A stretch of DNA of 64,000 nucleotides from Hormiphora californensis. Taxonomy: Eukaryota; Animalia; Ctenophora. The stretch lies in contig CM035352.1 in NCBI GenBank assembly GCA_020137815.1, positions 8,928,001-8,992,000 of the forward strand, in the 5' to 3' direction. Both the position numbers and the translations under genes were made by a program. Numbering within the stretch: position 1 is the stretch's first letter; every line of letters starts with the position of its first letter. This document shows positions 14,579 to 61,503 of the stretch, piece by piece. The notes beneath the pieces were generated by a model, which was given only the letters and a program-made list of their open reading frames with translations, had not been told where the DNA came from and made no database searches.

Positions 14579-14705
14579 TTACACCTTGTGCAATGTGCCC
14601 ACCCTGTGCTTACACCCTACAACTGTGCGGAGCACCAACCACCAATGTTGGCTCCATTGCAACCTATTCTCAGTCACGCACGACGTCGATCTCACTCAGG
14701 TATCA

Positions 14706-15286
14706 ATGTGGCCAACCACCGATGGACCTCGTGGAGCGAGGAAAAGAGGGATCTACGGAAGGCGTGGAGGACTGAAGGCAGACGACGAATGGAGGGGCCG
14801 ATCCGGGATCCCTAAACCGGAGTTCATGGGGAAAGAAAATTCTTTCTGTAGTGCGATGCAGATAGCAGATTGTTCCACCTTTCCAAGATTTGTGGTGGAG
14901 TCACTGCAAAATTCAATTCGGGAGGCGTATGAGGAGTTGATCGAGAGGATTTTGAACGTGGACCTAGAGGCGCAGTGGCTATTGCGATTTATGGAATCAA
15001 ACTTGAACTGGCGTTGCAGTTTTCGGCCGTGGACTTGACCATGGTGAGGGCTAACAGAAAAAGCCAGATAGAAACCAAAGGGGCGGTGAGAAGATTGATG
15101 GTATCTTGCAGGAAGGAGCGCGGGTTGGTGATGCCATCACCTCTCTACTGTGGGCTGCCTCTCAATCAGCTACTGGTTGATGAGGGCCAAATCACACCTG
15201 ATGGATTTCCAGCACTCGAAAGGCTGCAAGGGATGAAATTGCAACCAGAGTTGAAGACCACCAAGAGGATAAGGAGAGCAGCATAA
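14706..15286 (+). pseudogene. Unknown coding module(s), frameshifted
   Basis: ATG 6 nt after CTCACTCAG|; ORFs 14706-15038 and 14975-15286; RANRKSQI has a synonymous-diverged paralog RPNRKSQI at ~28705. Confidence 0.4.
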
Positions 15287-16057
15287 ATGAAATCAACACT
15301 ACCATCAGGGACAATCGGGAGATAGAAAACTGAACTTAATTGGGGAAGTTCTTATCAGGAATGGTGGAAAAAAGGCATCGTGTACATATTATCACAACTT
15401 GTTTAACATATCAAAGATCGAAGGCAAGGCTTCCATCCAAACAGTTCACAATGAAAAAGCTTCTTAGGACAGACGGTAATAATAATGATTTTGAGATGTT
15501 TTAAACTAAATTTCAGCATTTTAACATTCGAAGAGTCAGGTGGCCAAAAAAGAGAGAGGTAGCGAGGAATCGTTTGAACAGCCTTCGTGACGGATTAAAT
15601 CTTGTACGCTTAAGAAATTTCTGAGCAGGGGTATAGAGATAGTAGTGAGGGAGGCTGCGTACAAATCGGCAGACAGAGAGTTATTCGCCCAGTTCAGATG
15701 GAGTAGTAGTGCGGCCACCCCATATGAGAAGAAGAATAAGTTACAAGATGTGATCAAATACAGGAGTATGATGCCGAGAAGGAATCTCACCGACCTGGAG
15801 CGGCAACGCGACGGTGATGACAGCCACCCCACGGCACGAGCAGTTCTAGAGGACTTGTGCAAACTTGTGCAGCGTCAATTGGACAATCTATTCTGGATTA
15901 TGAATTTGGACGCTGACAATTGTTAGTATGTTACACGGACTTATTTATTTATTTTGTGAAACAGTCGTTATAGCAGTTCTATTATAACTATCATGGATTA
16001 CCACATCATGGTGATCACTAGTATTCGTAGTAAAGTAACTGCAGCCCTTGTAGGAAC

Positions 16058-16290
16058 ATGTTTCCTATATTAAGTCGACCTGGACCGCTCCTTCTTCCAC
16101 TGTTATCTTTGCCATGCCCCTACGACTGTGGCTATTGGTACATGGAACAGAATCGGGAGGCGCACAAGAAGGTGTTCCCAAACCGGCCAAGAGAGTGCTC
16201 AATGTGCGAAGAAGAGGTAGGACAATTCACCTCGAAGCAGTGCGTCATTGTGCCTCGGAGGCGGCATCCATCGACATTGGAACGGGAGAG
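16058..16290 (+). pseudogene. SINA/Siah-type zinc-finger fragment
   Basis: LSLPCPYDCGY...REAHKKVFPNRPRECSMC resembles the Siah FPCKY..GC....H...C..RP..C segment. Confidence 0.6.
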
Positions 16291-16630
16291 GCATATGTCA
16301 TGTTGGGAATTGCCCCGGTAGTGTTATGTCACTTAGGGGTAGAGAGGAGGAGGAGGCATATGTCATGTTGGGAATAGTGTTATGTCACCTGGGTAGAGAG
16401 GAGGAGGAGGCATATGTCATGTTGGGAATAGTGTTATGTCACCTGGGTAGAGAGGAGGAGGAGGCATATGTCATGTTGGGAATCGCCCCGGTAGTGTTAT
16501 GTCACCTGGGTAGAGAGGAGGAGGAGGCATATGTCATGTTGGGAATAGTGTTATGTCACCTGGGTAGAGAGGAGGAGGAGGCATATGTCATGTTGGGAAT
16601 AGTGTTATGTCACCTGGGTAGAGAGGAGGA
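16288..16630 (+). repeat. 54/63-bp tandem repeat, 6 copies
   Basis: GAGGCATATGTCATGTTGGGAAT[CGCCCCGGT]AGTGTTATGTCACCTGGGTAGAGAGGAG; single copy in the paralog at ~22757-22820. Confidence 0.9.
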
Positions 16631-18957
16631 GAGGCAGGCAGGCTGTCCACCCAGGTTTTGGGGGATTATCCGGCAACCATGGCGGTGGGAGCGTCTGGAA
16701 GCATCGGAGGAAGAGTTGCCCACACTCAGAGGGGTTCATTCGGCGATCGAGTCGAGGTGGATATCTCTACGGGACCCTGGATCTTGTGCCGACTGAGAAC
16801 TCTCTCGAGGTTCCCGTGTCCTCCCCTGTTGTGTCCGTTGTAGTATTATATTGTATATTATAAACTTTGTATAACTTTTATATTTTTTATATAATTTTTT
16901 TAAATTCCCTGTAGCTTCATTTCCCCTTCTTAATATAACTTGAGTGACTCCTCTGTGAAAACCTGGAAACTAACCCACCCTCATTTTCCCTCTAGCTGAC
17001 ATGACCACTACTCGAGTATTACCACGACACTGAGGTTCTCACCAAAGAAGAGCTCGGCCTTGCCCTATTACCCGACAAGCTGCTGGTTACATCGGATGAC
17101 ACCCTTCTCCAATCTGTGTTTATGAGCCTAAAGATCCCTGCACTACCTGTTAGCCCATGTAAATTGCCCTGTACACCGGAAATTGATCTGTTTAACAAGG
17201 GTTTATTTTCCTTTTCTTTCTACTGGGATTGGCAGTGAACCCGTTTCCCTAGAGCCAGAGTCACCACACGCACATTTCTCAAAATATTCACTGTTTCTCT
17301 CACCCTCGGCATCGCTTATGTATGTGATCATACTTTCATCATCGCGTAATTTATCAATTTAATCTATCGTTTGATTATATTTACTAAGTTTATATTATAT
17401 TATTCCCTCATAGTTTGTTGTTAAAGGAGGGACATGACTACCATTATAATTGCACGATACCAGAGAATCAAAGCAGAAGCGGACACCCAGATTATTATCA
17501 TCAACAGATATTGTGGAGGATCTGAACCTATCCTACTCGACACAAGAACCGTACTGAGAGAAGTCCTTGGCGGACCTGCAGGAGAGGGGAGATAATATCT
17601 CTACAATAGAAGAGGTCGAAGCCCTTATTAACAAAATATGGAAGCTAGGGTATCAAGAACGATTCCCAAACAGCGAGCAATACCAAGCCCAGGATAATCT
17701 AGCCCAGGCGAACCGAAGTGGACTCGAGGACGCGGAGGCAGTGGGAGAGGGAGAACCAGCTGCTCAACGGACACTTAAATAATTTTTAGTTTTTTAGACT
17801 TTTATTTATATATGAATTAATTTTATACCTTTTTTAATCTTAATTCTTTTAACAAACCTTATCAGCTGTGCTTTAAATGTCGGCTATTATTCATACAAAG
17901 AAGGTGAAACGCAAGACCATCGATACCACACTGACACCGCCACCATGAACAATAATGAACAATAAATCTGTAACTGGGCCCTAAGTGGTGTGTTTAATTG
18001 TATCCGGATACCAGAGAATCAAAGCAGAAGCGGACACCCAGATTATTACTATTATTATCATCAACAGATATTGTGGAGGATCTGAACCTATCCTACTCGA
18101 CAGGACACCCGGAGAGCAGAAGTTCAAATTGGAACCTCCTATATATCCTACTCGACAGAACACCCGGAGTGCGATGGAACTTGCGTTAGTTGGAGGAGGA
18201 TAAAAGCCGTTTGAAATCCCAGCGTGAACTCATACTAATATTTTCCCTGAACATAACGATTCCCACTCCTAGGCGAAGTTTACCCAGATAAGAGACAGTT
18301 TGACCTCTAGTACTGCCCATTCTTTACAATTATTGAATAGAAAGTGCTGAAGGAATTGATTTAAAAGAGATCTAGATAGTTATGGCAACATTCTTCTGTG
18401 AACCATTGGAGTTAAATATTTTCTTACAGTCGGCGTGAGATACAAAGGGATGTATTCATTAACCCACCCCGGGAGTTCAGGAAACCTGGGTACGTCTGGA
18501 AGTTAAAGAAACCGATCTATGGTTTGGAGGATGCATCCTGGAGCTGATATTTTACGATCTCTAATGCTCTACAGGAGGTTTGTGGGGTTTCCCGCATCGA
18601 TAAGACGACGTTTTACGGGAGAAATTTTGTGCTTTTATCCCCCCTTTTTATCTTAGTACCCCAGAACCAGCAGTAGTACGAATTGAAACAACTGTATATG
18701 TTGAAGTCAGCGGTGGTGCTGTCAGAAGAAATTTATATGTAGGGATTTGTGTTTAGGGATTTGTGTTAATTTAGTAATTTTAATCTTCTATGAGCTACTT
18801 TTGTACCCAAGGTTGGAGATGAATAAAAGGATTAAAGGTAATTATGCTTTAACAATATCCTAACCATTTGTTAAAAAATCTTGAGCCACGTTGGAGATAG
18901 CTTTGACAATATACTAAAGATTTGTTAGAAATATTTTACCGCATGGGTGCTGTGACC

Positions 18958-18970
18958 CTATATAAATAAT
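18958..18970 (+). promoter_or_regulatory. Candidate TATA box, duplicated at ~27219
   Basis: CCTATA(TA)AATAATGG in a ~160-bp non-coding block conserved between 18830-18990 and 27090-27250, with upstream repeated GCTTT(A/G)ACAAT motifs. Confidence 0.35.
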
Positions 18971-21099
18971 GGACTGAACGAGAAGAACTTGGAACTCTGA
19001 TTCTACTGAGTATTCAAGTAATTCAAAGGAAAAGAGAGAAGATATCAAACAATTGGGTAATCCTTATACGACCTATTTTTTATAGGAACCCCCGGCGATG
19101 CGGTACTTGTCACCTACGTACCAACAGGATCCTAGCGATGAATATGATCCGGCATTTCCGACTTACCAAGATACCCCACCCTCCCTTTATACCTATGTGA
19201 GAAGAAGGAAACGATCTCAAAGCCCGATTTATCAAGTCAAGAGGAGATCACAAACGAGTATTATTCTTTTAAATGTTTTAAATAACTTTTTATTTTTTAA
19301 TCAAAATCTCCAGTGTCAACTCTAAAACGTGTCATGTCTTATATACTGTCGCTGTCTGCCGTCTTTGCCTTCGGACCGACATCACCAAGAGAGGACTGAA
19401 GAAGGGACTGGAGGACTGAAGTCAACCTAGAAGGCATGGTGTTATCAAAGGGCTAGGACCGACCGGTCCTAAGATATCTCATAATGGGGCGATTTAAGTA
19501 CGTCACGGCAATGTGTGACTGGTTGCTTAAAAAGCAGATCGCAACATGTTCTACTTCCCAGGGCGACAAAAAAGCCTTGTTATCATTTGTATGGCGAGCG
19601 GCATATCCACTATACCATCTCAACATGAACTCCTAAGACCTAAGACGTTATATTGTTGTTGAAGGAGTAGAGGGACCAACATGACTACCGTTATTGCACG
19701 ATAACAGAGAATCAAAGCAGAAGCGGGCACCCAGATTATTATTATCAACAGATATTGTGGAGGATCTGAACCTCTGAAAATTTCAGTGAAACTTTTTTTA
19801 TGGCCTCACATGGTCAGGCTGTTGCGGAAGCATAAGAGAGATGGGCCAGACATCACGACCCCGTGGCGGCTGAGCAGACCCTGGAGGAGGAGATTAGGGT
19901 AAAGACGGAGATTCTGGCATTGCTCCGGCCGAGAATGTGATCCCAGATTAATTTGAGGTCTATGACCTCAGATTAAAATACTTCCCTAGCCATGGCGTCT
20001 AGGTAGGGAAAAGTACATGGCATATTCCTGTATTACTTCACCTCGATGGATCGCCTATTCCTTATCAGCGTATATCTGAGCTGGCAGTAGCCCAACTTGA
20101 CCGAATAGTACTACATTTATCTGACGAGATCAAATCGAGGAAAGCCGTGTAGAAACTTGTCGTGGATTGTCTTGCGAGGTTTGATGCTACTGATGACGCA
20201 GGAGAACGTGTAAACTAGTTTCACCGCTTCACCGACCTTCACCGACCTTCACCGACCTTCAGATGCCACCTGCGCTGAGAAATTTTGGAGGATCTCGACC
20301 TGTCCTACTCGACATTGAACACCTGGAGAGCGGTGGATCACTACTAGCAAAGCCCTGAATTTCGTCGATATTCCGTTCCGACTCCTTATCGAGTTGCGAT
20401 GAAGGCGTAATTATTAAAAAAGGTATTCCCCTGCCGGCAGCTGTCAGTTCTCCTCCATCCAGAAAAGGAGCCTATTGGTCCCTTGGACGAGACTAAGTGG
20501 ACAACAAGAAAGAGGCGTCATCACATGTAAAACAATGAGTGATAGGCCAGTCATATGATACATGAAAGAAAAAAATAATTAATCTAAATGTGATTCCACT
20601 TCAATAAGTCCCTGCAGAACCACCAAAGAAATTTCACACTTGTTTCTTCTCTGACAGGTCTAATTAGTTTTAGAAGAAGATATCTTAGAGAGAGTGAGAA
20701 CAGCCCCTCTGACCATTCTGCTATTATCCATTAACCAGCAACCTGTCATCGGCCAGGGACATTAAGTCGACCTGGACCGCTCCTTCTTCCACTAGTGCGT
20801 TAGCTGAGTCACGTGACTCTGCCCTGGGAAAGGGGAGTTGAGAGAGAGAGGAGAGAAGGTTCTGCATCTCCATCGAAACATAATAGCTATAAGTTGTTTC
20901 GACTGTAGTGTTTGGTGCGATTCTGCAACTAATAGAGTAAAGTAATTACGAATAGTATAGTGATTTAGAGATTTTGCCGGCACCCTAATATTTACTTGGA
21001 CACGTTCACCCCTCAGAGGGCCCCTAGCTCCCCGTGTCCCCTAATAATTGTTTATGAGAAGTTCGATATTACGTAGTTTTATAGAGTTGTATATTCTAA

Positions 21100-22690
21100 T
21101 GGATCTTGAGAGAGCACCAGTCTGCCACGAGGTGATCATTACAAACATCATCGCAGCTGTGAGCACGGTCACATTGTCTGTACGGAATGCAAAGAATTGG
21201 GGAGTTTGTCCTCTCTGTCGGGCTTCTTTAGTTCCGGGGATTAAGGGTACACCTGGCGTTTTTCATCATCGAGTGCCCAACCAAATGACTTCACCAGGGT
21301 TTAGGCCATACAAAATGGACCTCAAATATGCAATTTTAACCCTAAAGTCGAATTCATATTTTTGCTACAGCCTATTTTCAAAGTGGCGTTTTTTCAATTT
21401 TTGTTGAAATTTTTAACCTCAGGACCACTTTTTTTGAGATAGAAACATTAAATTCTTGGAATTTGAAGAGAATATAAAGGTGAATAAGCCCAAAGAAGGA
21501 TTTTTGAAATGGAGCTTATTTCTGGCCATGAGAACGGTTTACTTTTTTGCTTCTTTGACACGCTGGCTGAGAATGTTCCCATGCTTCATTAGAGATGAAA
21601 ATCTGGAAATAGTTGCTCAAAACGATTATCTATGTGGCCCAAAAATTTTGGAACTTTCCCGCCAAAGATGTGGTGTACAGAGCTTTTTTTGTGAAACCTG
21701 TCTTTTTGAAAAAGAGGGAAATTCCCTGTATCTCAAAAACGGATGATCATAGAGACCTGGGACCAAGCTTAATCGATTCAGAAGGTCCGATTTTGGGGGG
21801 GTCTTCTGAGAGACATTTTGCTCCTACTCCAACCGATTTTGCTGTAATTGCAAAAAACTAATTCTATGAAAAGGGGAAACAACTCTATTCCAGTAGCCTG
21901 CTTCGGGCTGATTTCCCCCTTACTTGCTGATACCTTTTTCGCAATTACAGCAAAAACGGTTGGAGTAGGAGCAAAATGTCTCTCAGAAGACCCCCCCAAA
22001 ATCGGACCTTCTGAATCGATTAAGCTTGGTCCCAGGTCTCTACGATCATCCGTTTTTGAGATACAGGGAATTTCCCTCTTTTTCAAAAAGACAGGTTTCA
22101 CAAAACAAGCCCTGTACACCACATCTTTGGCGGGAAAGTTCCAAAATTTTTGGGCCACATAGATAATCGTTTTGAGCAACTATTTCCAGATTTTCATCTC
22201 TAATGAAGCATGGGAACATTCTCAGCCAGCGTGTCAAAGAAGCAAAAAAGTAAACCGTTCTCATGGCCAGAAATAAGCTCCATTTCAAAAATCCTTCTTT
22301 GGGCTTATTCACCTTTATATTCTCTTCAAATTCCAAGAATTTAATGTTTCTATCTCAAAAAAAGTGGTCCTGAGGTTAAAAACTTCAACAAAAATTGAAA
22401 AAACGCCACTTTGAAAATAGGCTGTAGCAAAAATATGAATTCGACTTTAGGGCTAAAATTGCATATTTGAGGTCCATTTTGTATGGCCTAAACCCTGGTG
22501 AAGTCATTTGGTTGGGCACTCGATGATGAAAAACGCCAGGTGTACCCTTAAGCACCGTACGCTGGTCGCTGGAGGCCATGGCGGCTATGTTGTCTTTGCC
22601 ATGCCTGTGGCTATTGGTACATGGAACAGAATCGTGAGGCGCACAAGAGGGTGTCCCCAAACCGGCCAAGAGAGTGCACTGACAATACAC
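21100..22690 (+). pseudogene. SINA/Siah-like RING E3 ligase pseudogene split by a Kolobok-type element
   Basis: After removing 21245-22551 and allowing frameshifts: PVCHEV..SCEHGHIVCTECKEL..VCPLCRASL...LEAMAAMLSLPC...REAHK..PNRPREC. Confidence 0.7.
21245..22547. mobile_element. 1.3-kb palindromic non-autonomous element, Kolobok-type
   Basis: ~610-bp near-perfect arms; termini GGGTACACCTGG...CCAGGTGTACCC (RR...YY); TTAA at 21241-21244 and 22548-22551. Confidence 0.9.
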
Positions 22691-23087
22691 CTCGGAGCGG
22701 TGCATCATTGTGCCTCGGAGGCTGTACCCATCGACATTGGAAGGAAGGAACGGGAGAGGCATATGTCATGTTGGGAATCGCCCCGGTAGTGTTATGTCAC
22801 CTGGGTAGAGAGGAGGAGGGGCAGGCAGGCTGTCCACCCAGGTTTTGGGGGATGATCCGGCAACTATGGCGGTGGAAGTGTCTGGAAGCATCGGAGGAAG
22901 AGTTGCCCACACTCAGAGGGGTTCATTCGGCGATCGAGTCGAGGTGGATATCTCTACGGGACCCTGGATCTTGTGCCGACTGAGAACTCTCGAGGTTCCC
23001 GTGTCCTCCCTTGTTGTGTCCGTTGTAGTATTATATTGTATACTATAACCTTTGTATAATTTTTATAATTTTTTTATATACCCCCGC

Positions 23088-23330
23088 GAGATAACACAGG
23101 GTGGAGTCAGCAGATCGACAGTCCAATCTACTACTGTCCTGCGTGAGCTCCAAGTGGATTCTGTAGGACACTGTTTGGGTGAATGCCTGATGCAAAAGCG
23201 GTGTCACCAGATCTCATACAATTTCGAATCTGGTGATTGTCACCTGGAGACCGGACTGAGTTATGGAGCAGGCAACGTGCATGGGGACATCCTGATCAAC
23301 CAGTACTCGGTCGACTGTCTTTCCTGTTAG
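23088..23330 (+). CDS. Isolated PAN/apple-like domain module
   Basis: VDSVGHCLGECLMQKRCHQISYNFESGDCHL fits the PAN pattern S..C...C.....C....Y......C.L; no clear start. Confidence 0.6.
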   Translation, partial: EITQGGVSRSTVQSTTVLRELQVDSVGHCLGECLMQKRCHQISYNFESGDCHLETGLSYGAGNVHGDILINQYSVDCLSC

Positions 23331-23656
23331 AATTCATGGGCATGGACCGTGAAGTAGCTTGCGGATCGGGCAGAAACGACTTACATAGCAGACTAATGCG
23401 GGAGTTACAGTTAGTGAGGAGGAAAATCCGGGGAATGATCTTGACTGTTTCCACGACCTGAAACAATCCTATGATTTGGGCCCCTCCGACGAATCGAGGG
23501 CTCGGGAGAAGAGAGGATGGGAGATGTTAGACGTCCTGGAACATATTCCCATAGCGGGGCATTTTTACCAAATACTAAAGAGCCCATCGGAGATATATAG
23601 GCCGGTACAAATTGATATATTATATTTAAATATTTATACTATTATGTTAATTATTA

Positions 23657-25067
23657 CCGTAAGTTGGGGTAACTTTGTACCACTTTTTAGCATTCTCCTA
23701 AAATAACTCCTTGCCAGAACCACACTCGAAAATTTTTGAACCAAATAATCCCGTTCCAGACCTAGTACACCAGATATAACTAGTGAAATTTTTGGTCCCC
23801 TTTCATTTAATTACATTAATTAACGTGTATTTTAGTGTAAGTGGGGTTTTAGGGCATGGGGTAACTTTGGAATGAGGGTGGGGTAACTTTGGACACCCGT
23901 CCAAAGTTACCCCACGATAGTAATATTGGAACAAACATAAATCCGAACATTTTGTAATGATACATAAATGAACCTAAAATGTTTAAATGGAGTTTAAATG
24001 GGTCAATAAATTAAAAAAAGAACAATAGGGTAAGCCAAACGCCCCATGATTTAAAAAAATGGTTGATCTCGACTCAACTTTTTTGGGTGTGAGGAATAAT
24101 GAAACTAACCACCAAATAAAATTTCAGCTCAATCGGACTTGATTTAGAGGTTGCCACATCCGGCCTGAAACCCATCAAACTTCAATAATTTGGGGTCCCT
24201 CATTCACCCTGTAGTTTGGTAGATGGTATTGAACCTCTAGGCGAGTGTGTTAGTTCTTTTTGCTGAATTGGATAGACAGGAAGTGGTCTACTTATGGGTA
24301 CTTGATAAATAAAGGAGTTTTGGTATCTCCATACTCCTGTATAGATTGTCTACAAGAACTAACACACTCGCCTAGAGAGCCAATACCATCTAACAAGCTA
24401 CAGGATGGATGAGGAACCCCAAATTATTGAAGTTTGATGGGTTTCAGGCCGGATTTCTGTGATTTAGCTCCATAAAATAGTCCAAATCCTAGTTGTTTTC
24501 ACTAACATATCGAATATATAGATGGAAATGGGCGTGGAGTGGGCTGAATCTTGGTTATATAGCCCTAAATAATTCAGTGAGGGTCTAAGGCAACTCTACA
24601 GACATCAAAAGTTCAAAACCTATAGTGTGGGGTAACTTTGGCACCCCGTCCAAAGTTACCCCAAAATTCAAAAAACGGTGGGGTAACATTAGCCACCCCT
24701 ATTAGTCTCAATTAAAGTAATAATTGATCGGGTTTGAAAAATGGTGCCCCGAATTATTTGATCGAAACCCTTCCACTCTATGGAGCAAACTTGATTCGGT
24801 CATTAGCCCGGTCAAATCTATGGTACCCATTTTGATTTGAACATTTTTAGCGATTTTGAGATCAATTATGTTTGCCCCTAATTAGGAGCCAATTAGCATA
24901 GAATTGAAAAAAATAATTGTACCGTTAGTTAGACATTTGTGGGTCAATTACTTGTACACCCAAAAATTATGCCAAATATGTCGTTATCTGTTGGTAATTT
25001 TGGACTAAAGCCAAATTTCGAAAGTGTCCAAAGTTACCCTGCAAAACAAAGTTACCCCAGATTACGG
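23657..25067. mobile_element. Non-autonomous pogo/Tc1-mariner element
   Basis: TIR CCGTAAGTTGGGGTAACTTTG / CAAAGTTACCCCAGATTACGG; TA TSD; GGGGTAACTTTG subterminal repeats; empty-site paralog TTATTA|TCTGGTATCGAACTAATTTTA at ~26495-26521; internal palindrome 24158-24454. Confidence 0.88.
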
Positions 25068-26790: not shown

Positions 26791-26910
26791 TTGATCTTGA
26801 GAGAGCACCTCACATGCCCTGTATACCACGAGGTCACCACTACAAACATCATCGCAGCTGTGAGCACGGTCACATTGTCTGTGCGAAATGCAAAGAATTG
26901 GGGAGTTTGG
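26791..26910 (+). pseudogene. SINA/Siah-like RING fragment
   Basis: LREHLTCPVYHEV then (frameshift) SCEHGHIVCAKCKEL; near-identical to 21100-21208. Confidence 0.65.
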
Positions 26911-29280: not shown

Positions 29281-29355
29281 ATTTAACTAACTGTGGGTGC
29301 AAACTTTGGGTGATAAAGGAAGGTGTTATATATTTGTAATATTAATTGATATGTA

Positions 29356-49195: not shown

Positions 49196-50084
49196 TCATA
49201 CCCCAACAGATCCCGGATGAGGATTTATTAATTATTTAATTATGTATATATAAAGCTATGTTCTAATATATAGGAATGTATAAGTTTGGCATATCAAGAG
49301 ATACTGAAATTGAGATATTATTTGAAATCGACTTATAATAACTCTTTCCCAATAATACTTTACTCTTCAGTTGTTTACATCGCTCAACTGGCGACCCCGA
49401 AGAGACTAGAACCCCCAATGTTTCAGGAGTGGTGTTTTTATAATTCAAAGACCATAACCTCCCTTCAATCAGACCTCATTATTGAGGAGCATAGCGTTTA
49501 ATTATTAATTGTAAAAGTTGTTTCAATTTATATTAATTATGTAAACACTCGTTTTATTCATCATGTTACCAAAATGATTTGATGGAAGCGAAAGGTCATC
49601 AACACACATCACACAAATGGCGACCCCGAAGGGACTGGAAATCCCAATGTTTCAGGAGTGGTTCTTTGAAAAAGTGGCCAATATGTTACCTCTTATGTGC
49701 GAGAGTAATTGCGGTGAACAATTAGGACAAGACTGGAGAGAACATCTCCTGTTCCAATACCAAGGTATGGAAGGAAATGGACGGTAGAAGAGGCACTGAA
49801 GGAACTGAGGGAAGCAGGATCTCCCATGGGAATATAATTCGATAGGAAAAAGGTCCTAAAAGCCATGAGGCCCTAAAAGCCATGAGGCCGAATCCAGGCC
49901 TACTGGAGAGAACATCTCCTGTTCCAATACCAAGGTATGGAAGGAAATGGAAACCGCGGCAGAAGAGGCACTGAAGGCACTGATGTCAATTCCACCACCC
50001 TCGTATGAGCCGCCTGCTCCTCAGGAACCGGTCCCCGCACTGGATCTGGCTGAGGGAGATAGGACTGGAGGAGAGAATAAGGGC

Positions 50085-50336
50085 AGTGGTTCAGGAGAGC
50101 GTGGTTACCCTGCAAAGGGAGTGGTGCAGGAGAGCGTGGTTACCCTGCAAAGGGAGTGGTGCAGGAGACCGTGGCTACCCTGCAAAGGGAGTGGTTCAGG
50201 AGAGCGTGGCTACCCTGCAAAGGGAGTGGTTCAGGAGAGCGTGGTTACCCTGCAAAGGGAGTGGTTCAGGAGACCGTGGCTACGCTGCAAAGGGAGTGGA
50301 TCAGGAGACCGTGGCTACCCTGCAAAGGGAGTGGAT
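50085..50336 (+). repeat. 35-bp minisatellite, ~7 copies
   Basis: GAGTGGTTCAGGAGAGCGTGGTTACCCTGCAAAGG. Confidence 0.93.
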
Positions 50337-51444
50337 GGGCAGGCAGGTGAACCCACAGATGACAGGGTTTCTATTGGCGGACTGGAGTTCGTTCCTGGGC
50401 CGGTGGGACCGAGCGAGGGATTTGGCTCGAATAATTTATATAAGGAAATATATCACAATATTGACGACATCGTATCACTATAAGATTAGCTTTTTACAAT
50501 TAAATTATATATACTGACTTTAGTCAATGGAAGACCATGGAAGAGCCATGGAGAGGAGGCACTGAAGGCACTGAGGGAACAAGGATCTTCCATCGAAAAA
50601 AAAAGGTCCTAAAAACCAAACATGAATAGTTTGCGAGAGAGAGAATTTCTCCACACCGCGCTTAGGGTCCTAAAATCCAAGAAGAAAAGTGTTAGGGTCA
50701 GCACGCGCGGCTTCTAACTTTTGTAGTTGTACGAGGCCGCGCGCACTGGCAGAGCGAGATTTATTTATTCCAATTTGTCCGACGTTTTTATATATTTTAA
50801 CAGTTCCAAAACAACAAATCAAAGCATGTGTTAGCAGTCAACAAAATCAAAGAATCAAAGTTATCATAGATCCTAGTTAATGAGTTCTCTCCAATTAGCA
50901 AGGTAGAACAAATGGCGACGAAGATGGTAAGCAGCATAGAAGCTTGGGACGGACAAGCTGACTCTTTAAGAGGATGGTTGGACCGGTTAACGCAAAGGCA
51001 GGAGGAGATCACAGTTATATGGTTTTCAGCCTCTTCAGAGCCTATCTACTACAGCTATTGCCTCATGGACTCGTATTCAGTGATTTGATCGTTCATGTTC
51101 CATATATATTACATATTTTCATAAATAATGGAACAGTTTCCATAATAATGGTATGTCCATTTATTAGGAGGCGATGAGAAGCCCGCCGAGTTGATTGCCC
51201 GTGGGATCATTGGCCACCTCGAGCAATTGGGCATTGATACGAAGGCGATTAGAGTGTGATGGTACCAACACAAACATGGGACGATGTGGAGGTAAAGCAT
51301 CACGATTATAACGCATATAAAAAAGAAGTAATTCTGCCATAGAAATTATATATAAGAGAGAAGAGTCCTATTAAGATTCACTATTCATTTCCATAATTAG
51401 AACAAACCCCTTCCAATAATTCATATTATATTCTAACTTGTGAT

Positions 51445-52695
51445 GGGGGGGCCGTCACCTTTTTTTTGTCTACTTTTGTCTACTTTTGTCTACAGCACTT
51501 TGAAAATTTCAGTGCAAAGTAGACAAAAGTAGACAAAAGTAGACAAAAGTAGACAAAAGTAGACAAAAAATTTTCAAGTACAGAAAACAATTTCTGCATT
51601 TTCTGTAATTGTTATGTATTTTCATATTATACTTTGGATATATTTTTATTAATTATTCATATTCCAATGGCCCCTTCTTTATTCCTAAATTATAAAACTT
51701 TAAGAACAATTACTGTAAACGAGTGTAGACAAGCGCAGTTTGGGGGGTGTTTGGGGGTAAAGAGGGGGCAATTGAAGTCACAAACACCCATACACACATA
51801 AACATAGTCCCAATAGAGACCATGGAAATTCATATCAAGGATAGAAGTTGTTTTCTAAACTTGAAAAATTTTTTGTCTACTTTTGTCTACTTTTGTCTAC
51901 AGGTGTTCCTAAAGTGTTCCTAAAGTGTTCTAAGAGTGTTTGGGGGTAAAGAGGGGGCAATTGAAGTCACAAACACCCATACACACATAAATAAAGAACA
52001 TGGAAACACATATCAAGGATAGAAATCGTTTTCTAAAATTGAAATTTTTTGTCTACTTTTGTCTACTTTTGTCTACAGGTGTTCCTAAAGTGTTATAAGA
52101 GTGTTTGGGGGTAAAGAGGGGGCAATTGAAGTCACAAACACCCGTACACACATAAATATAGTCCCAATAGAGAACATGGAAATACATATCAAGGATAGAA
52201 ATTTATTGGGAATTGTTTTCTAAATTTGAAATTTTTTGTCTACTTTTGTCTACTTTTGTCTACAGGTGTTCCTAAAGTGTTCTAAGAGTGGTTGGGGGTA
52301 AAGAGGGGGCAATTGAAGTCACAAACACCCTTACACACATAAATAGAGAACATGGAAATACATATCAAGGATAGAGATCGTTTTCTAAACTTAAAATTTT
52401 TTGTCTACTTTTGTCTACTTTTGTCTACAGGTGTTCCTAAAGTGTTCTAAGAGTGTTTATGGATAAAGGGGAGCAATTAAAATCGAAATTACTAATAGAA
52501 ACGTAGATAAAGTGTATGAGAATACTTCATAAGTGCAGAAAATGTTTAAAAATTTCTTAACTTGAAAAAAAAGTTTTGTCTACTTTTGTCTACTTTTGTC
52601 TACATTTGTCTACTTTTGTCTACTTTTGTCTACATTTTCATTTTCAAAATCTGGTGCAATGTTCCTGTAGACAAAAAAAAAGGTGACGGCCCCCC
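51445..52695. mobile_element. Non-autonomous TIR element (MuDR/Merlin-like ends) with (TTTTGTCTAC)n and ~170-200-bp internal repeats
   Basis: TIR GGGGGGCCGTCACCTTTTTTTTGTCTAC; TSD (C)TTGTGAT 7-8 bp; empty site visible in the paralog at ~46555-46600. Confidence 0.88.
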
Positions 52696-53669
52696 TTGTG
52701 ATTCCCCAGTAGCTTTTCATGTCACTACCAAGGTCCCGATCGATTGGACGCAATTTGCTAGAGGTGAACCTCTGGAGAGGAGGCCCATGGACAGTGTAAT
52801 TGTAGTTCCAGGAGGCCATGTCTTGGAAATTGTATACTGAGTATTGTATACTGACTTTAGTCAATGCTATTGTCTAGGTGAAGTCAGGCGAGATCGAGAT
52901 TATAGACGATGAAGATTGCGACCAGGACGTCTCTCGGTGTGAAAACCCCTTACGAGGACAGCCAAGACTGCACATCAGACTGGCATATCGGATAGAAACT
53001 TGTGCCGGAACATCCTGGCTTACCATTGGGTGAGCTACTCAAACTAAGGATATAATTTATTTGATTAGTTATATTACAGTCGGACCCCGATTTAGGGACC
53101 CCCGATTTAGGGACACCCCGATTTAGGGACAGGATTTTTTCCCCCAAAAATTTTTTGAATTTTTTTTGTGAAATTTTTTGTGAAATTTTTTTGAAAAATT
53201 TTCAAAAAGATACCAGCCACGTCCGAATCGTGTTTCGAATCAGTGAATCTTATCGCATGTCCTGCTGCTAATTAGAAGTTTCGGAACGAACCGATACGTG
53301 ATCCCCATGCGGCCATTGAATCACAAGTTCACCAAGCGTCAAAATTTCGATTCGATGGGGATCACTTTTCGATTCGTTCCGAACCGTCTAATTAGCAGCA
53401 GGACATGTGATAAGATGTACCGATTCAAAACATGATTCGGACGTGGCTGGTATACGTTTAAAAAATTTTACAACTTTTTTGCAAAATTTTACAGTACGAT
53501 TGTCAATGCTTTGATCGGTGCTCCCCATAAATTTTGAGAGAAAAAGTTATTTTGAAATTTTCATACTTCCTAACCCGGTTAGGGTGCCCCGATTCACAGT
53601 TCTCTCAAAACATTTTCTCTTGTGCTTGTCCAGTTCTTTTAACAGTTGCTGTAACCTTATACCTTGGGT

Positions 53670-54737
53670 ATGTCCCGTACTCTGCTTAATGCTGCGAATA
53701 CGGGATACACGAGTTTGACCAAAATTAAAGCGCAGATCGACAAGGTGATCCAGTCATCCGGAAAAAGTAAAGAGGATACCATCAAGGAGTACAAGAAGCT
53801 CATGGAATGGGTGACAGGGGTGCTCGACAGGGATCTACCAGCAATCCAACGTGTTTTGCAGGGGAGTGAGGGCATTGCTAAACTGCAGAAAGAAAATACA
53901 GACTTGAATGGAGAGGTAAGTGTCTTGACAGCGAAGAATGCAGATCTTTGGAAGGTGAATGAGAAGTTGACAGACTACAGCAAGGTAACTGATAAGGTCC
54001 AGGAAATGCTGACCGAATTCAAGCGGGACCTCCCTGATCCAGCCCATTCTCAAGTTGATGTCACCATGAAGAAGGAGATCAAGGATGCAGTAAAGGACAA
54101 CCTGAAGGAGGTCATGACTGAAGCTGTGAACAAGATCGTGAATACCGATAAAATGAAGAAGACATTTGCTGAGGTTGTTAATAACTCCCAGAACATCATC
54201 AAAAAGGAAACAAAGAAGTGTTTCGACGAAAGTCTATCTTCTGCCCTGCAGGAGAGCCAGAACGAAATTGTCGCTAAGACTACAGCCCGACAAGAGGACG
54301 ATCAGTTTGAAAAAGAGAGGAGAGTCCGGAACGTGACAATTGTCAACATTCCTGAAAGTTCTCTTCCTGAATCCAAGGATAGGGAGGAAGCTGATGCAGT
54401 GTTTACCAGTGAATTACTGCAGATACGGAGAAACCAGGTAATAACTTGCTACCGAGCTGGTCCCCCGATCGGGACAGGTTCAAACAAGGATAAAGAGGGA
54501 CCACGACCCCTAATTGTTATCTTGGAGACTCCTGAGCTGGCCAAGTCTAAGCACAAATATGGTAACGGAGATAGACTAATTGTTGATGGAGTGATTTACT
54601 GGGTGAACCCCGACCTGACTCGGGCGGAAAGGAAGGCAAACTGGCGGGCAAGGGCGAAGAGGAAGGATCGGGCCAGGAGAAGAGAAGATGGGGGTACCGC
54701 ACCAGATTCGGGAAACTCCGCCATCGTTGTGACGTAA
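53670..54737 (+). CDS. LINE ORF1 (coiled coil plus RRM-like/CTD region)
   Basis: Uninterrupted ~355 aa; KTFAEVV, ERRVRNVTIVNIPES, YRAG, PRPLIVIL, YWVNPDLTRAER motifs typical of CR1/L2-group ORF1. Confidence 0.85.
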   Translation: MSRTLLNAANTGYTSLTKIKAQIDKVIQSSGKSKEDTIKEYKKLMEWVTGVLDRDLPAIQRVLQGSEGIAKLQKENTDLNGEVSVLTAKNADLWKVNEKLTDYSKVTDKVQEMLTEFKRDLPDPAHSQVDVTMKKEIKDAVKDNLKEVMTEAVNKIVNTDKMKKTFAEVVNNSQNIIKKETKKCFDESLSSALQESQNEIVAKTTARQEDDQFEKERRVRNVTIVNIPESSLPESKDREEADAVFTSELLQIRRNQVITCYRAGPPIGTGSNKDKEGPRPLIVILETPELAKSKHKYGNGDRLIVDGVIYWVNPDLTRAERKANWRARAKRKDRARRREDGGTAPDSGNSAIVVT

Positions 54738-54745
54738 GGACTTTA

Positions 54746-57700
54746 ATGCACTCAACTGCTAATATTGACAGTCATCTCAAGATATATTACACAAATGCCA
54801 ACGACTTAAAAAATAAAATACATGAGTTAGAACTCACGGCTAAACTCAATGACTGCAAGGTTCTTGGTGTAACGGAAACTATGTTCAGTGACGAGATTGT
54901 AGACGCTGAAGTGTCTATTGCTAATTTTAAGCTATTCAGAGTAGATAGGCAAAGTAAAGGAGGCGGTTCGTGTCTTTATATTCATGATTCGATTCAGTGT
55001 CACGAAATAATAATCAATGTCCCTGAATGTGCTTGCGTCAAAATAATGTTTGATACAATTTCCATTGTGCTATTCATTGTATACCGTGCACCTTCACTGT
55101 CCCTAATTGAAAATAAATGTATGTTAGATAGCTTATCTGTGGCAGTAAAACAAATGTCTGCTGAACATGAAATTATTATGATGGGGGACTTCAACCTCCC
55201 TGATGTTTTGTGGGATGTAGGTGTAGTCGCATGTCCGTTTAACCCATTAGTGCCCAGATATCGAAATTTTTGAAGAAATTTTCCAATTTTTTGGGAATAG
55301 TGCCCTAGCAGCACCAATATGGTAAGTTGAAAAGCGGAAGTCTCTATCTTATCGGGAAGTGCTTAAAACAACCTGTTGCGAAAACGCATCACTGGCACGT
55401 CCCATTTTCGCAACACTTTTCGAAGTCATTTTACAGCTAAAATTATGATGCAATCATTTTAAAATTTCACTTAACAGACTTCAATCTGTTATGAAAATAA
55501 TTTGTGATATCTAGTTTTTGTCTCCGGGCAAGTTTAAAATTCGTTGCGTTTTCGCAACAACATTCGCAGCCTGTTAACAGCTAAACATTCAATAATTTTT
55601 TTCAAACTAAGTTATTAATGGCAGTCTAGTAATAGTAGAAATAGTTTGTGATAGTCAGACTTAAGCTTGGGGCAGCTTAGAGTTTCGTTGCGTTTTCGCA
55701 ACACCTCATTCGACAGCAAATCTGGCCATCTCGTACAGTGTTTTTGACTTCTATACTACTGAGCAGCACCGTAAAGGTCTTACTACGGTATCTATGGGGA
55801 ATTTGAAGGAAATCAGAAAGGTTGCGTTTCCGCAACATGCAAAAATGTCAGCAAATAGTGCCACCCTCACACCAATATAATTTCATTATGAAATAGCAGT
55901 TAAATTATCACTAAACTTGATTTGAACCGACATTGGGTGAATCATATCGATATTGGAAGGTGGGAGATCATGTTGGATTAGAAAATAAGGTTGAATATTT
56001 GTAGATTTGACCGAAAATTCATGAAAATATAGTGTTTAGTGTGGGGGTATAGCCACTTTCAAGCCCAGTGGGCATATCGTTAGCCATTCTGTGTCTCCCA
56101 GGCCATAATCACTCACTGGGGCGTCCTCTGAGTTGTCCCAGGTGTTTCCCGGAGACTCCTGAGAGCTCGCTGAGCCGCTCTAGATACTCCCTAAAAAGTC
56201 CTATATACTCCATGAAACGTACTGGGACCTCCAAGGTGCTCCCTGAGTCGCCCAAGGCGCTTTCGGGGACCTCTCAAACGCTCTTTTAGGCGTCCTGTAT
56301 GCCCCTTGAGTCGTCTTGAGACCTCCCAGGTACTCCCTGAGTCGTTCAGTGTACTCGGTGAGTCCTCCTACGCTCCCCTGGGTTGTTTCAGGCGCTCTCT
56401 GAGTTGTTGCTGGTGCTCTCTGAGTCGTCCCAGACGAACACTGGGACCTCCTGGGTGCTCCATTTGCCGTTTCGGATGCTCCTTGATTCGTCCTGGGACA
56501 TCCCAGGTGCTCCCTGAGTCGTCCACTTTGCTCGAGGAGTCCTCCCACGCTCCCCTGGGTTGTTTCAGGCGTTCCCTGAGTTGTTGCTGGTGGTCTCTGA
56601 GTCATCCCAGACGATCACTGGGACCTCCTGGGTGCTCCATTTGTCGTTTTGGATGCTCCTTGATTCGTCCTGGGACATCCCAGGTGCTCCCTGAGTCGTC
56701 CACTTTGCTCGAGGAGTCCTCCCACGCTCCCCTGGGTTGTTTCAGGCGTTCCCTAAGTTGTTGCTGGTGGTCTCTGAGTTGTCCCAGACGATCACTGGGA
56801 CCTCCTGGGTGCTCCATTTGCCGTTTTTGATGCTCCTTGATTCGTCCTGGGACATCCCAGGTGCTCCCTGAGTCGTCCACTTTGCTCGAGGAGTCCTCCC
56901 ACGCTCCCCTGGGTTGTTTCAGGCGTTCCCTGAGGTGTTGCTGGTGGTCTCTGAGTCGTCCCAGACGATCACTGGGACCTCCTGGGTGCTCCATTTGCCG
57001 TTTTGGATGCTCCTTGATTCGTCCTGGGACATCCCAGGTGCTCCCTGAGTCGTCCACTTTGCTCGAGGAGTCCTCCCACGCTCCCCTGGGTTGTTTCAGG
57101 CGTTCCCTAAGTTGTTGCTGGTGGTCTCTGAGTTGTCCCAGACGATCACTGGGACCTCCTGGGTGCTCTCTTTGCCGTTCTGGGTGCTCCCTAAGTCGTG
57201 CCGGGTGCCTCTAGCTCGTCCCAGATGTCCCACGAGGTCATAGGTTAGACATATCAAACACTAGAATCGTTAATAACAAGATAAAAATGGCCCAGAGTCA
57301 TTTACAGTACTAAATTGTTTACTTTATAGATGTTGCGAAAACGCAACGATTGGAAACGGTTCATATACACACTTTCAACCAACCACAGTTGTAAAATGTA
57401 ATGTTTATAAGCATACTGATGTATAATTTTGCTAAATATCCCACTAAATGACTCAGAAACCGGCAGAAACAGCCAAAAAGTGTGTTGCGAAAACGCAACG
57501 ATAAATCGTTTGAGTTGATTTTTTTGCTTTAATCGATTTTAAAAAATATAAAAAGTCACCAAAAATAGCCCTATAATTTTTATTTATTTTAAATTGCCCC
57601 TTAACATGCTTTGAAAACCTCCAATATATGCCCCGTGCCAGTGTAGCGTTTCCGCAACCCACTTGTTTGAGGCTCTACAGGGCCAACAGGAAATCCGTTT

Positions 57701-58682
57701 GAGATCTAGTTTTTTTACAGAAACATCTCTGAACATTTCTCTAACTGATCAGCTATGTGTCATATCGGTAACTAGTCGAGATATATTACATAAATGCACA
57801 TTTATGTGCATTAGTCCGAATGCCAGAAATTGGTACTTTTTGATTGATAATTACGGAAATTAGGGTCAATTTAGAAAACTTTTTAATGACTAAAATTTTA
57901 GTTCGAACGATTCTCTAGTGATGTGTGGTGGTTACAGCATTTCAAATGCTCATATCTAGCCGTAATACGCCTCCAAACCTGGGTTGCGATAACGCGTCAC
58001 AGGTCACTAATGGGTTAATACCTCTAATCAAAAGTATATAATTCAGCAATTGTTTCTAGATTTCTTCGTGCAACATGATCTCACCTGGGTTATCGGCGAT
58101 GGTGTTAAAACTCGCAGGCGTCAAGTTTTAAATGAACTACAGGCAGCAACACTTGATAATGTCCTAACGTCAGACAACAACATCTTTGCTGATGTACATG
58201 TGACCGCACCTCTGGGAAAATCAGACCATGTCGGAATTATTAGCTCCTGGCGCATATCCAACAACTCGGAGTACATGCCTCATGAGAAGCGGAACTGGTC
58301 AAAAATGTCCCCGGAAAAGATCATAGCTGCTAATCACAATCTACAATGGGAGTGCAGTTCAGACTCAGTGGATATTCTATGGAAGAGCATGCATGCCAAT
58401 GCTATGAAGATTGTTGACCTGGTACCTATCAGCAAGATCCGTGTATCTCACACGGGTGCAGTGAAAACAAAATCCGTGTGGGACCGCCCTTGCCTTGAGA
58501 AGGCCAGGAAGCAGAAAGAGAAACACTGGGCTGAGTTTGAGAACTTTCCAACACATCGCAATCTTAGCATAGCCCTTAGCAAGCAGGGTGTGTTTGACAG
58601 GTGCCAAAATTCGTATGCTGAGTACATGTCTGCTAATCCGTCGCTAGCTAAATTAAAGGGAATTAACACCAACATGTTTTAG
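54746..58682 (+). CDS. LINE ORF2-derived APE endonuclease (386 aa after removing the piggyBac insertion)
   Basis: YTNAN, VTETMF, DRQSKGGG, VYRAP, MGDFNLP (54746-55242) join in frame (ACPF|NTSNQKYIIQQLFLD) to TLDNVL and GKSDH (58019-58682). Confidence 0.85.
55243..58014. mobile_element. Non-autonomous piggyBac element, 2.77 kb
   Basis: TTAA TSD (55239-55242, 58015-58018); TIR CCCATTAGTG(C/A)CC; recurrent GTTGCG(AAAA/TTTT)CGCAAC palindromic motifs; excision restores the host ORF. Confidence 0.93.
56290..57200 (+). repeat. 177-bp tandem repeat, ~5 copies, inside the piggyBac element
   Basis: TGCTCCTTGATTCGTCCTGGGACATCCCAGG recurs at 56477, 56654, 56831, 57008. Confidence 0.93.
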
Positions 58683-61503
58683 AGAACCGAACTGTTTTAA
58701 TGGTCAATGTATGTGCCTGATGCACATTTCAATGTATATTTTTAATTACTATTGTGGGAAATGGAAGTGAGTTTAGACGTAATTTGCGTAGAGTGAATTT
58801 CGAGTTGGCCGTGTGGCCAAAATCTTTATTATTATTATTATTATGGTATCACGTATCGGTTCGTTTTGAACCCGCTAATTAGACAGGACATCCAGTAAGC
58901 TGCACTGATTCGAAACACAAATCGGACGGGCTGGTATAACTTAGAAAATTTTTCCACATTTTTTTTGAAAAAAAATTATTTTATATTTTCCTATTTCTAA
59001 TCAGAAATGATCATGTCATCAATATATGAATATTGCATATATAACAGTTAGAGGTGTCTTTAGTCTTAATAATATAGGATGTTGGGCATAAAATAGGTTT
59101 TTATGGGTCAAATATGGCTCACCCCGATTTAGTGGACACCCCGATTTAGTGGACAAGACCCTTTCCCCCGAGGCTGTCCCTAAATCGGGGTCCGACTGTA
59201 TTAACAATGAACGAATGTAATATCACAATTGGACAGAATATTGTGACGGGCAAACTTCTTTACAAACCGGTATCAAAGAAAACCATCTCTCGTTCCCGGT
59301 GGTGTATTCAATATTCTGAACCCTACTACAGATTGGAACCGGTCGTCATCTGTACAATGCACGATTTAATTTCCAGCTACAACGAAAGCTTAGTATCCTC
59401 ATCTCAAAGGATATCCTTATCTTTAAATCTACTGTGTCTTGAAGAAGGTTTAACTGCCGAAAAACTACGTAGTTAGATGTTATATTATACAATTCAATAA
59501 AACTTACGTAGTTAGATGTTATATTATACAATTCAATAAAACTTGTGGAGGAGAGGACCTAAGAAACGTTATGGGAAGACACAGGAAATTGTGTTGGGCA
59601 AACTTCATAACAAACCATAACAAAGGGGCTATCACCAAGTACAATCTGATTTATGTTTTGTTATTTATGTTTTAATATTTATCTATTTTGAGCTTCTTTA
59701 ACTAAGAAGAACGGTTGATATTTTAAACGGGACTGATATTTATGAAGAGACTTCCTGTTGCAATGCTAGTGGATGCCATTATAGGAATATGTAATATTCC
59801 AAAATTCCTAAAATGTGTTTGTTACCCACTTCCGACTCCAGTCGACTGCAGTCCAGCCAGGGGAAATGACAACACACCATCAGGTCCTAGCAATTCCGAG
59901 GACGTCTTCCTTCTCCCAAACACCTTCAATGTGCGGCCTACCACCCCAACCAACCCTATTCATCCCTTCTACTGTTAAATGCTGGGACTGGAGGCTTGAA
60001 CACTGTTCCAGGAACTTCCTACAATGTGTCCGGAACAGAATGAACGAACACACGACAGAAAATGGAAGCCCTCTTCAATAAAGAGAGACGAAAAGTTGGC
60101 GAAAATTGTAAAATCTTACTATGATTTTGGATCAACCGTAGACTTTTTGAATTGTATAGCGAGCACTAACACTGCTAGTAGTAGTACATAGTGTGAACTT
60201 GCTTGACTTGCATAGTGCATAGTTTGGGTAAAAGATCCCATGTCCATATAATGACCTGTATAACAGAATGAACTAACACAGAGAACGAAAAGGGAGAACA
60301 AAAACAAGAATATTTAATTAATGAAATTTATAAATCTAGAATAAAATGGTCATGTTGTTTATAAAAACCAGATTAAACGAACGGTACGCAATTAGCAGAA
60401 CCTCCGACTGAATACGACATAAGATATGACTGATGAGAATAACAATAGGGAGAACAAGAGAGTTCCCTCACCAACCCTATCCATCCCGGAGAAGATGTCA
60501 GGGATTCCTTGGAGAAGTTGAACAAGGCGAGCATTCATCGATGCAAACCCTAGGGGAAACCATCCATGATGAATTCCAACCCAGCAAAGTTAGGAGCACG
60601 GAACTTACGACGCAGTAAGGAATATTCTAGTTGTATTTGGAAGTGAAGTTATGACCACTGACTGATATTGAGATGAAATAGGGGATGAGGAGAAAAGACG
60701 GTCTCCGGCTTATTCGGAACGAGAGAGCTCCCTCACCAACCCTATCCATCCCTAGAGAAGATGTCAGGTAGAACCCTTCCTGGCTTTGTATCTTCAGGGC
60801 CGCCGTACACCGGGCGAGGACAGGAACCTACCCAAACAGGGAGGAGGCCGTAAAGGCATGCTGTATCGCCGTGAAGGAACTCAAAGGTGTATACACCATT
60901 GATAACGCAGTTTCTGCTATTGGGCGGGCACAGAAACAATCCAAGAAGTAGAGGCGGAGGAGGCCCGGCTCCAAATGGGGCCGGAGGCTCCTAGAGAGAG
61001 GAGGGTCTACCCCTTGAGGGAGGTCCTCTTCGATCTCCGAGGGTGGTGCACAGTCACCATCCAGGAACATACAGATTTAGATTCCATAACTTCAGCTACA
61101 GTATCAGTCCACTACCTTTGTATCCACCTTTGGATCCACCAAGCAGTTGCATTATGATGCACAACTTTTTCCTCCGATTTGTGAGTCTAGCTCAGTGACT
61201 ACATGCAGAAGCTTGGAATCTTCTTGAAGTACCGTGGCTGTTACACAACGTATGTATAGTATGTATATAATATGGGGTATGTATGAAGAGGAGCATCACA
61301 AGATCACACCTGGAGTGCATTATAGCGGGGGGGGGGGGGGTCGGAGCGGAGTTTACCAAGGATGGATACTGGTTAGCGAGGCCATACTTGGGGTTTTAAT
61401 TAATGTTCTCACTTTTACATTTTTTGTGTTAAGACCAGATGCAAGGACACTCGAGTGGTGCATTGCACACAGAACGAAGATCTATCTGGACGAAGATAAC
61501 AGG

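What the first reader, a model, noticed from the sequence alone, without database searches (positions are those of the whole stretch)
14690..61445. Splice-acceptor AG 3-12 nt before the ATG in many unrelated modules: possible trans-spliced polycistronic array
Seen (AG end, then ATG): 14699/14706, 16053/16058, 16995/17001, 19085/19098, 28681/28685, 33821/33831, 38275/38288, 38407/38420, 39270/39278, 40395/40408, 49018/49028, 50523/50527, 52860/52864, 61433/61439. Most have a pyrimidine tract and some a CTGAC/TTAAC branch-like motif. The 9-nt spacing is conserved between the diverged 33831 and 49028 paralogs. Established: ctenophores use spliced-leader trans-splicing, and in nematode operons acceptors lie just upstream of start codons after U-rich spacers. 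Inference: the array may be an operon-like transcript resolved by SL addition. Caveats: I picked the sites by eye, and some have plausible cis donors upstream (GTGAGT at 33687, GTAATT at 19018), which would mean 5'UTR introns.
Basis: partly seen in the sequence, partly recalled or inferred. Interest (0 to 1): 0.72.

Follow-up and report, generated by a model that had tools for sequence, protein, structure and literature searches.

The report
Splice sites before decayed comb-jelly genes
In what is likely comb-jelly DNA, a 49-kb run of broken, same-direction genes has splice-site-like signals just before about half of the proposed start codons; these likely took the host's ordinary spliced leader or ended short introns, and an operon is neither shown nor excluded.

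Summary
All 14 AG/ATG pairs exist, but they include copies and reduce to about 9-10 independent sites. Only 2 of 11 definitions gave about 2-fold excess. Four sites fail on inspection (16053, 28681, 52860, 61433).

A real core remains. In four multi-copy gene families, 10 of 15 start codons have an acceptor-like AG within 20 nt, against 7.7% of all ATGs (partly circular). The 33821/49018 upstream tract is conserved although third codon positions are only 40% identical.

The region is a decayed, reshuffled, + strand array (alpha-kinase, Sina-RING, PAN, copia-RT pieces), with a Pleurobrachia homologue for one family. No spliced-leader read was seen. AATAAA precedes 1 of 14 sites, and a perfect cis donor precedes 33821.

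Verdict: partly real splice acceptors, most likely ordinary ctenophore leader addition or 5'UTR introns. An operon is unproven (about 25%).

The parts
14590..64000 (+). Decayed, internally duplicated, same-strand gene array interrupted by MITEs and a LINE; likely cargo of an unidentified large mobile element (inferred; no ends or core genes found)
   Evidence: Self-alignments; Pfam domains on +, only 3 sub-cutoff hits in 131 minus-strand ORFs
33758..33830 (+). Best-supported 3' splice site: branch-like TTAAC, pyrimidine tract, AG at 33821, 9 nt before ATG 33831 (family A)
   Evidence: Aligns to the 49028 paralog upstream, score 66 vs shuffles 21.6±4.0, 0 of 2000; best unrelated spacer 36
33687..33692 (+). 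Perfect 5' splice donor GTGAGT that would give a 135-nt 5'UTR intron; copied at 35078
   Evidence: 3% of background AGs have one; host introns in 1-2200 are about 140-360 nt
33831..34073 (+). Family A ORF; copies at 35219 (acceptor AG lost) and 49028
   Evidence: pS 0.78, pN 0.29 against 49028; homologue P0001 from Pleurobrachia bachei, E 6.8e-31
48945..49195 (+). Family A paralog with candidate acceptors at 49013 and 49018 and ATG 49028
38112..38480 (+). Family B cassettes: U-rich spacer, AG 38275/ATG 38288 and AG 38407/ATG 38420; TATA-like element at 38178; no strong donor within 200 nt
39262..40767 (+). Further family B copies: AG 39270/ATG 39278, AG 39641 (ATG lost), AG 40395/ATG 40408
16958..17595 (+).
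18959..19325 (+). TATA-like element 18959, donor GTAATT 19018, AG 19085, ATG 19098 (75-aa ORF): looks like a separately promoted gene with a 68-nt 5'UTR intron (inferred)
   Evidence: TATA region duplicated at 27220
14699..15286 (+). AG 14699/ATG 14706, 110-aa ORF then a second frame; acceptor weak and also donor-like
47714..50604 (+). Family D copies (Met at 46909, 47765, 49947, 50527); an AAG 12 nt before the Met in two copies, which also reads as a donor
16053..16060 (+).
28681..28687 (+).
52860..52866 (+).
61433..61441 (+).
30703..30966 (+). Alpha-kinase fragment; diverged paralog pieces near 29069-29287, 36017-36200 and 44440-44580
   Evidence: Pfam PF02816 E 3.1e-08; PDB 1ia9 E 4.9e-4; pS above pN
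21102..22983 (+). Broken Sina-like RING gene split by a long inverted-repeat element at 21235-22557; RING copy at 26754
   Evidence: Sina_RING E 0.005, below the curated cutoff
23049..23327 (+). PAN domain fragment
   Evidence: PF00024 E 9.9e-07
26147..26416 (+). Copia-type reverse transcriptase fragment, duplicated near 18400
   Evidence: RVT_2 E 0.0055, below cutoff

Best explanation
The region is a decayed, reshuffled array of same-strand genes, likely cargo of a large mobile element in a likely ctenophore genome, and about half of the listed AGs are likely real 3' splice sites at gene starts, which would take the host's spliced leader, or close a short 5'UTR intron, on transcripts likely started near each gene. 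Shown: co-orientation, decay, purifying selection on the old coding frames, a conserved acceptor-like tract in family A, and spacer-plus-acceptor-plus-ORF cassettes that moved together while their upstream neighbours changed. Inferred: that the sites were spliced; that a nearby promoter makes a short U-rich leader which the spliceosome swaps for the leader RNA where no donor lies upstream (families B, C) or removes in cis where one does (33687, 19018).
For: Family A: pS 0.78, pN 0.29, third-position identity 40%, yet the upstream 70 nt align far above shuffles. 10 of 15 start codons in four multi-copy families have an acceptor-like AG within 3-20 nt, against 7.7% of 506 + strand ATGs. Leader on at least 56% of H. 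californensis Iso-Seq reads, so an acceptor before an ATG is the expected state of a ctenophore gene (PMC8527503). TATA-like elements lie 98-330 nt before 19085, 33821 and 38275; a perfect donor precedes 33821; AATAAA precedes only 1 of 14 sites. Duplicated units include the spacer with the downstream gene but have different upstream neighbours (17319-17545 vs 25601-25853; 38112-38365 vs 39483-39792 vs 40230-40549).
Against: No read shows a leader or a splice joint at any site. TATA-like motifs precede 31% of background AGs and moderate donors 52%, so neither is enriched at the 14 sites (donors at 9 of 14). Spacers of 100-200 nt between a stop and the next acceptor (16796 to 16995, 17238 to 17413, 25638 to 25739, 38087 to 38275) leave little room for separate promoters and fit an operon as well. 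No element ends, intact transposase or capsid gene was found, so 'mobile element' rests on gene content and layout.
Confidence: 0.42

Rival explanations
1. One reading: the array (or its source element) is transcribed as long polycistronic precursors that spliced-leader addition at each internal AG cuts into single mRNAs.
For: Strict + orientation of credible domains over 49 kb; U-rich spacers of 100-200 nt ending in an acceptor, in the range of C. elegans operons (about 100 nt, PMC7986045) and the tested Hydra RFC140/flp operon (417 nt, PMC3273482); families B and C mostly lack a strong donor.
Against: No motif enrichment as defined; 4 of 14 sites spurious; AATAAA before 1 of 14 sites (ctenophore poly(A) signals were not modelled); perfect cis donor at 33687; present gene order comes from later duplication and shuffling; no leader seen.
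Confidence: 0.25
2. The acceptors are cis-spliced only: either each gene has its own 5'UTR intron, or one shared upstream leader exon is joined to many acceptors, as in adenovirus late or retroviral subgenomic mRNAs (comparison recalled).
For: GTGAGT 135 nt before 33821 and GTAATT 68 nt before 19085; similar donor-acceptor pairs of 60-95 nt inside modules (40670-40754, 36201-36260, 17320-17413); a copia-RT fragment in the array.
Against: 5 of 14 sites have no moderate donor within 250 nt and donors are not enriched; no shared leader exon or LTR was identified.
Confidence: 0.2
3. None of the sites is functional: T-rich, G-poor spacers next to purine-rich coding DNA create AG-before-ATG patterns by composition.
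For: Counts match shuffles in 9 of 11 definitions, and the minus strand has as many or more hits in most.
Against: Family A's upstream tract is conserved well beyond synonymous divergence; the TTGTAG before the ATG is kept in three diverged family B variants.
Confidence: 0.13

Closest known systems
Ctenophore spliced-leader trans-splicing (Hormiphora californensis, PMC8527503, passages read)
   Same: Likely the same host lineage; AG acceptors close to gene starts are what leader-capped genes need.
   Different: There it is shown by Iso-Seq on host genes; here no leader read was seen and the genes are broken. The main text has 0 occurrences of 'operon'; supplements not read.
Hydra RFC140/flp operon (PMC3273482, passages) and nematode/tunicate operons (PMC7986045, passages)
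   Same: Same-strand genes, short U-rich spacer, pyrimidine tract and AG before the downstream start.
   Different: Those have a poly(A) signal in the spacer and experimental or read support; here AATAAA precedes 1 of 14 sites, the gene order is scrambled, and nothing is shown at RNA level.
Terminons and other giant cargo-carrying transposons (PMC6431247, section 8 and passages)
   Same: Tens of kb of diverse accessory ORFs, tandem build-up and secondary insertions.
   Different: No hammerhead ribozyme, no Penelope-type RT and no telomeric ends were found in the window.
IS3EU DNA transposons with alpha-kinase cargo in rust fungi (PMC12730594, passages)
   Same: Alpha-kinase genes carried on a mobile element.
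   Different: Fungal, with kinase and transposase on opposite strands; no IS3EU transposase, TIRs or TSDs were identified here.

Membership tests
SL-resolved eukaryotic operon | Leader sequence joined at the acceptor of downstream genes | tested here: inconclusive
   Only run X1 covered any site (16053, itself spurious); its contig crosses unspliced with no leader-like loose end; RNA status is a guess
SL-resolved eukaryotic operon | One precursor spanning several genes from one promoter | not testable with these tools
   No raw or long reads were available; a contig over two genes shows no transcript
SL-resolved eukaryotic operon | Same-strand genes with short U-rich spacers | tested here: met
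   stop-to-acceptor gaps of about 100-200 nt at four cassettes
SL-resolved eukaryotic operon | Poly(A) signal shortly upstream of the acceptor | tested here: not met
   AATAAA within 300 nt at 1 of 14 sites vs 16% background; variant signals not modelled
SL-resolved eukaryotic operon | Acceptor without an upstream cis donor | tested here: inconclusive
   9 of 14 have a moderate donor (background 52%); a perfect donor at 33687; family B mostly lacks one
Functional 3' splice site at a gene start | Branch motif, pyrimidine tract and AG conserved beyond neutral divergence | tested here: met
   Family A only; AG context kept in family B
Terminon (giant Penelope-like retroelement) | Athena RT and 3' hammerhead ribozyme with telomeric repeats | tested here: not met
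   Rfam scan of the whole window gave only sub-threshold miRNA hairpin hits; no such RT in Pfam scans; element parts may lie outside the window
Endogenous DNA virus or Maverick | Capsid, packaging ATPase, DNA polymerase or integrase genes | tested here: inconclusive
   None found among decayed ORFs or in IMG/VR scans with 2 queries; decay and the window limit reduce sensitivity
Cargo-carrying DNA transposon | TIRs, TSDs and a transposase bounding the cargo | tested here: inconclusive
   No bounding repeats among the 25 of 29 inverted pairs shown; a short transposase-like motif near 46300-46430 is a recalled resemblance with no Pfam hit

The most novel reading that the evidence does not exclude
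A ctenophore-specific giant mobile element or endogenous virus carries dozens of promoterless cassettes (alpha-kinases, RING ligases and novel small proteins) on one strand and expresses them as polycistronic RNA cut by the host's spliced leader: ctenophore operons, and a parasite that gains genes simply by adding acceptor-tagged cassettes.
Probability: 0.22. Interest if true: 0.72.

Novelty: new member of a known kind. Interest (0 to 1): 0.36.

Why it matters
If the ordinary reading holds, this adds little: acceptors before start codons are expected in an animal that leader-caps most mRNAs, and the copy here is dead. The array itself is an unclassified, lineage-restricted cargo cluster worth a genome-wide look. 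If the operon reading holds, it would give ctenophores operons and show a mobile element using host trans-splicing to express many genes. Three paper searches on ctenophore trans-splicing and operons (listings only) showed no such report, but the library lacks most subscription papers, and Derelle et al. 2010 could not be read.

Tried and rejected
No whole genome is held, so copy number, intact paralogs and a species-specific splice model could not be tested.

Sequencing runs: no RNA holder listed; two guessed-RNA contig sets were returned. Laid on 14590-21230 only: X1 covered 15228-16131 with 3 records at 99-100% identity plus one poor 40-nt match, and X2 nothing. Lack of cover elsewhere is no evidence. 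The 22560-38470 stretch, with sites 28681, 33821, 38275 and 38407, has no read evidence either way.

Homologue searches found nothing for 15591, 30763 and 14706, in IMG/VR or in JGI metagenomes. PHROGs gave 1 weak hit in 52 ORFs. P0003 was dropped as a repeat-driven match. The fold of family A was uninformative (mean pLDDT 48.6), so no fold search was run. The Atlas gave no answer.

Rfam found no SL RNA or ribozyme. An 11-nt match to the published leader's 3' end followed by GT at 19947 was noticed after the fact; 19 of 100 shuffles give a match with up to 1 mismatch, and the leader's 5' part is absent, so it was rejected as evidence. Three look-ups of earlier findings were empty. The Terminon primary paper was not held.
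Full report
Setting. The window is eukaryotic. Bases 1-2200 hold the 3' part of an intron-containing host gene with GT-AG introns of about 140-360 nt. A profile of the 33831 family searched against 1.84 billion representatives gave 3 hits. The best (E 6.8e-31) is a Pleurobrachia bachei gene model, the second an unnamed ENA protein, and the third a repeat-driven match that I dropped. A ctenophore host is therefore likely; the species was not determined, and no genome is held.

The array. From about 14.6 kb to the window end lies a patchwork of direct duplications, tandem repeats, MITE-like inverted repeats and a LINE. Among 137 + strand ORFs of 50 aa or more (143 proteins scanned in all), Pfam found an alpha-kinase and a PAN domain above their cutoffs and a weak Sina RING. 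Short targeted queries added three more alpha-kinase pieces (one above cutoff) and a copia-type RT fragment. The 131 minus-strand ORFs gave 3 sub-cutoff hits of no evident meaning. All six paralog pairs tested show synonymous above non-synonymous change in the + frame, so these were real genes under selection and are now broken by stops and frame changes. No capsid, polymerase, intact transposase, ribozyme or bounding repeat was found. 'Cargo of a large mobile element' is an inference from layout and content; alpha-kinase cargo has a precedent in fungal IS3EU transposons (PMC12730594, passages).

The observation. All 14 AG/ATG pairs are at the stated places, but they reduce to about 9-10 independent sites, and 7 ATGs open 25 codons or fewer. 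Of 7 other definitions, 2 G-poor ones gave about twice the shuffled count on +, with duplicated copies among the hits, and those requiring a branch motif did not.

Sites that fail. 28681/28685 lies in decayed coding DNA collinear with the interior of the 14706 gene (score 67, 0 of 500 shuffles). 16053/16058 is a junction: 31 nt shared with 20759, then the internal zinc-finger part of a gene whose paralog has a RING domain upstream. 52864 opens 5 codons. 61439 and 50527 are out of frame with the conserved or long frame.

Sites that hold. In family A the proteins differ at saturation (pS 0.78, pN 0.29; third positions 40% identical), yet the 70 nt before the acceptor, with a TTAAC branch-like motif, align at score 66 against 21.6±4.0 for shuffles and at most 36 for 17 other spacers. 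That alignment pairs 33821 with 49013 rather than 49018, so the 9-nt spacing may not be conserved. Family B keeps TTGTAG 7-12 nt before a shared start Met in three diverged variants. Over four multi-copy families, 10 of 15 start codons have an acceptor-like AG 3-20 nt upstream, against 7.7% of 506 ATGs on + and 7.6% of 537 on -. This count is partly circular, and the T-rich spacers favour it.

Cis, trans or operon. Moderate donors lie 45-250 nt before 9 of 14 sites (background 52%); only 33821 has a perfect one (background 3%). AATAAA lies within 300 nt of 1 of 14 (background 16%). TATA-like motifs precede several sites but also 31% of background AGs. Duplicated units carry spacer, acceptor and ORF together while their upstream neighbours differ, so the present order is not an ancestral operon order. 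But H. californensis carries the leader on at least 56% of Iso-Seq reads (PMC8527503, passages), and single-leader animals cap monocistronic genes too, so acceptors alone do not imply an operon. That an upstream donor favours cis over trans use is recalled from nematode work, not from a call.

Reads. No run on record as RNA holds 14590-21230. Contigs of seawater run X1, guessed to be RNA, match 15228-16131 at 99-100%. One crosses AG 16053 unspliced by 47 nt, with no joint or leader-like end. This may be DNA, and the site is spurious anyway. The best sites have no read evidence.

Earlier notes. One AI note (e1-7889052) describes YAG-before-ATG starts in an unrelated eukaryotic DNA virus. It is an untested parallel and is not used as support.

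Verdict. Most likely these are real 3' splice sites at some gene starts in a dead cargo array, used for ordinary leader addition or 5'UTR introns (0.42). An operon resolved by the leader stands at 0.25, purely cis splicing at 0.2, and pure composition at 0.13. Supplements of the cited papers were not read and could bear on whether ctenophore operons are already described.

Noticed in passing
window 1-2183 (+): 3' exons of an intact-looking multi-exon membrane protein gene, resembling acyltransferase-3/NRF-6 (name recalled; the one ORF scanned had no Pfam hit). Intron 629-988 holds a repeat I recall from pleurobrachiid introns.
   Followed up: partly
window 53655-58682 (+): LINE with an intact 355-aa ORF1 and an endonuclease split by a nested insertion with 177-nt tandem repeats (Exo_endo_phos_2); same strand as the array.
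   Followed up: partly
window 5540-7027 (-): Truncated LINE-like element with a Cys/His-rich ORF1 and endonuclease-like start, on the opposite strand and outside the array.
   Followed up: no
window 8179-9569 and 21235-22557: Long near-perfect inverted repeats (618-623-nt arms, 99-100%), likely recent foldback or MITE insertions.
   Followed up: no
window 48330-48930: Inverted-repeat element flanked by TTAA on both sides, piggyBac-like target site (label recalled), upstream of the 49028 gene.
   Followed up: partly
window 15228-16131: The only part of 14590-21230 present in run X1, at 99-100% identity and including the junction at 16053-16100; it may be multi-copy or expressed.
   Followed up: partly
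window 40737-41816 (+): Open 359-aa frame with 10-aa repeats and a C-terminal CCHC knuckle-like motif, behind a strong acceptor at 40754 with no nearby ATG.
   Followed up: partly
window 46144-46570 and 51014-51444 (+): Duplicated fragment with a short motif recalling hAT-type transposases (recalled; no Pfam hit).
   Followed up: partly
window 19947-19959 (+): 11 nt identical to the 3' end of the published ctenophore leader, followed by GT and an ATG 4 nt on; within chance.
   Followed up: yes
window 61420-63140: 84-nt tandem array, 19 copies, open in two frames with 5-nt slips.
   Followed up: no
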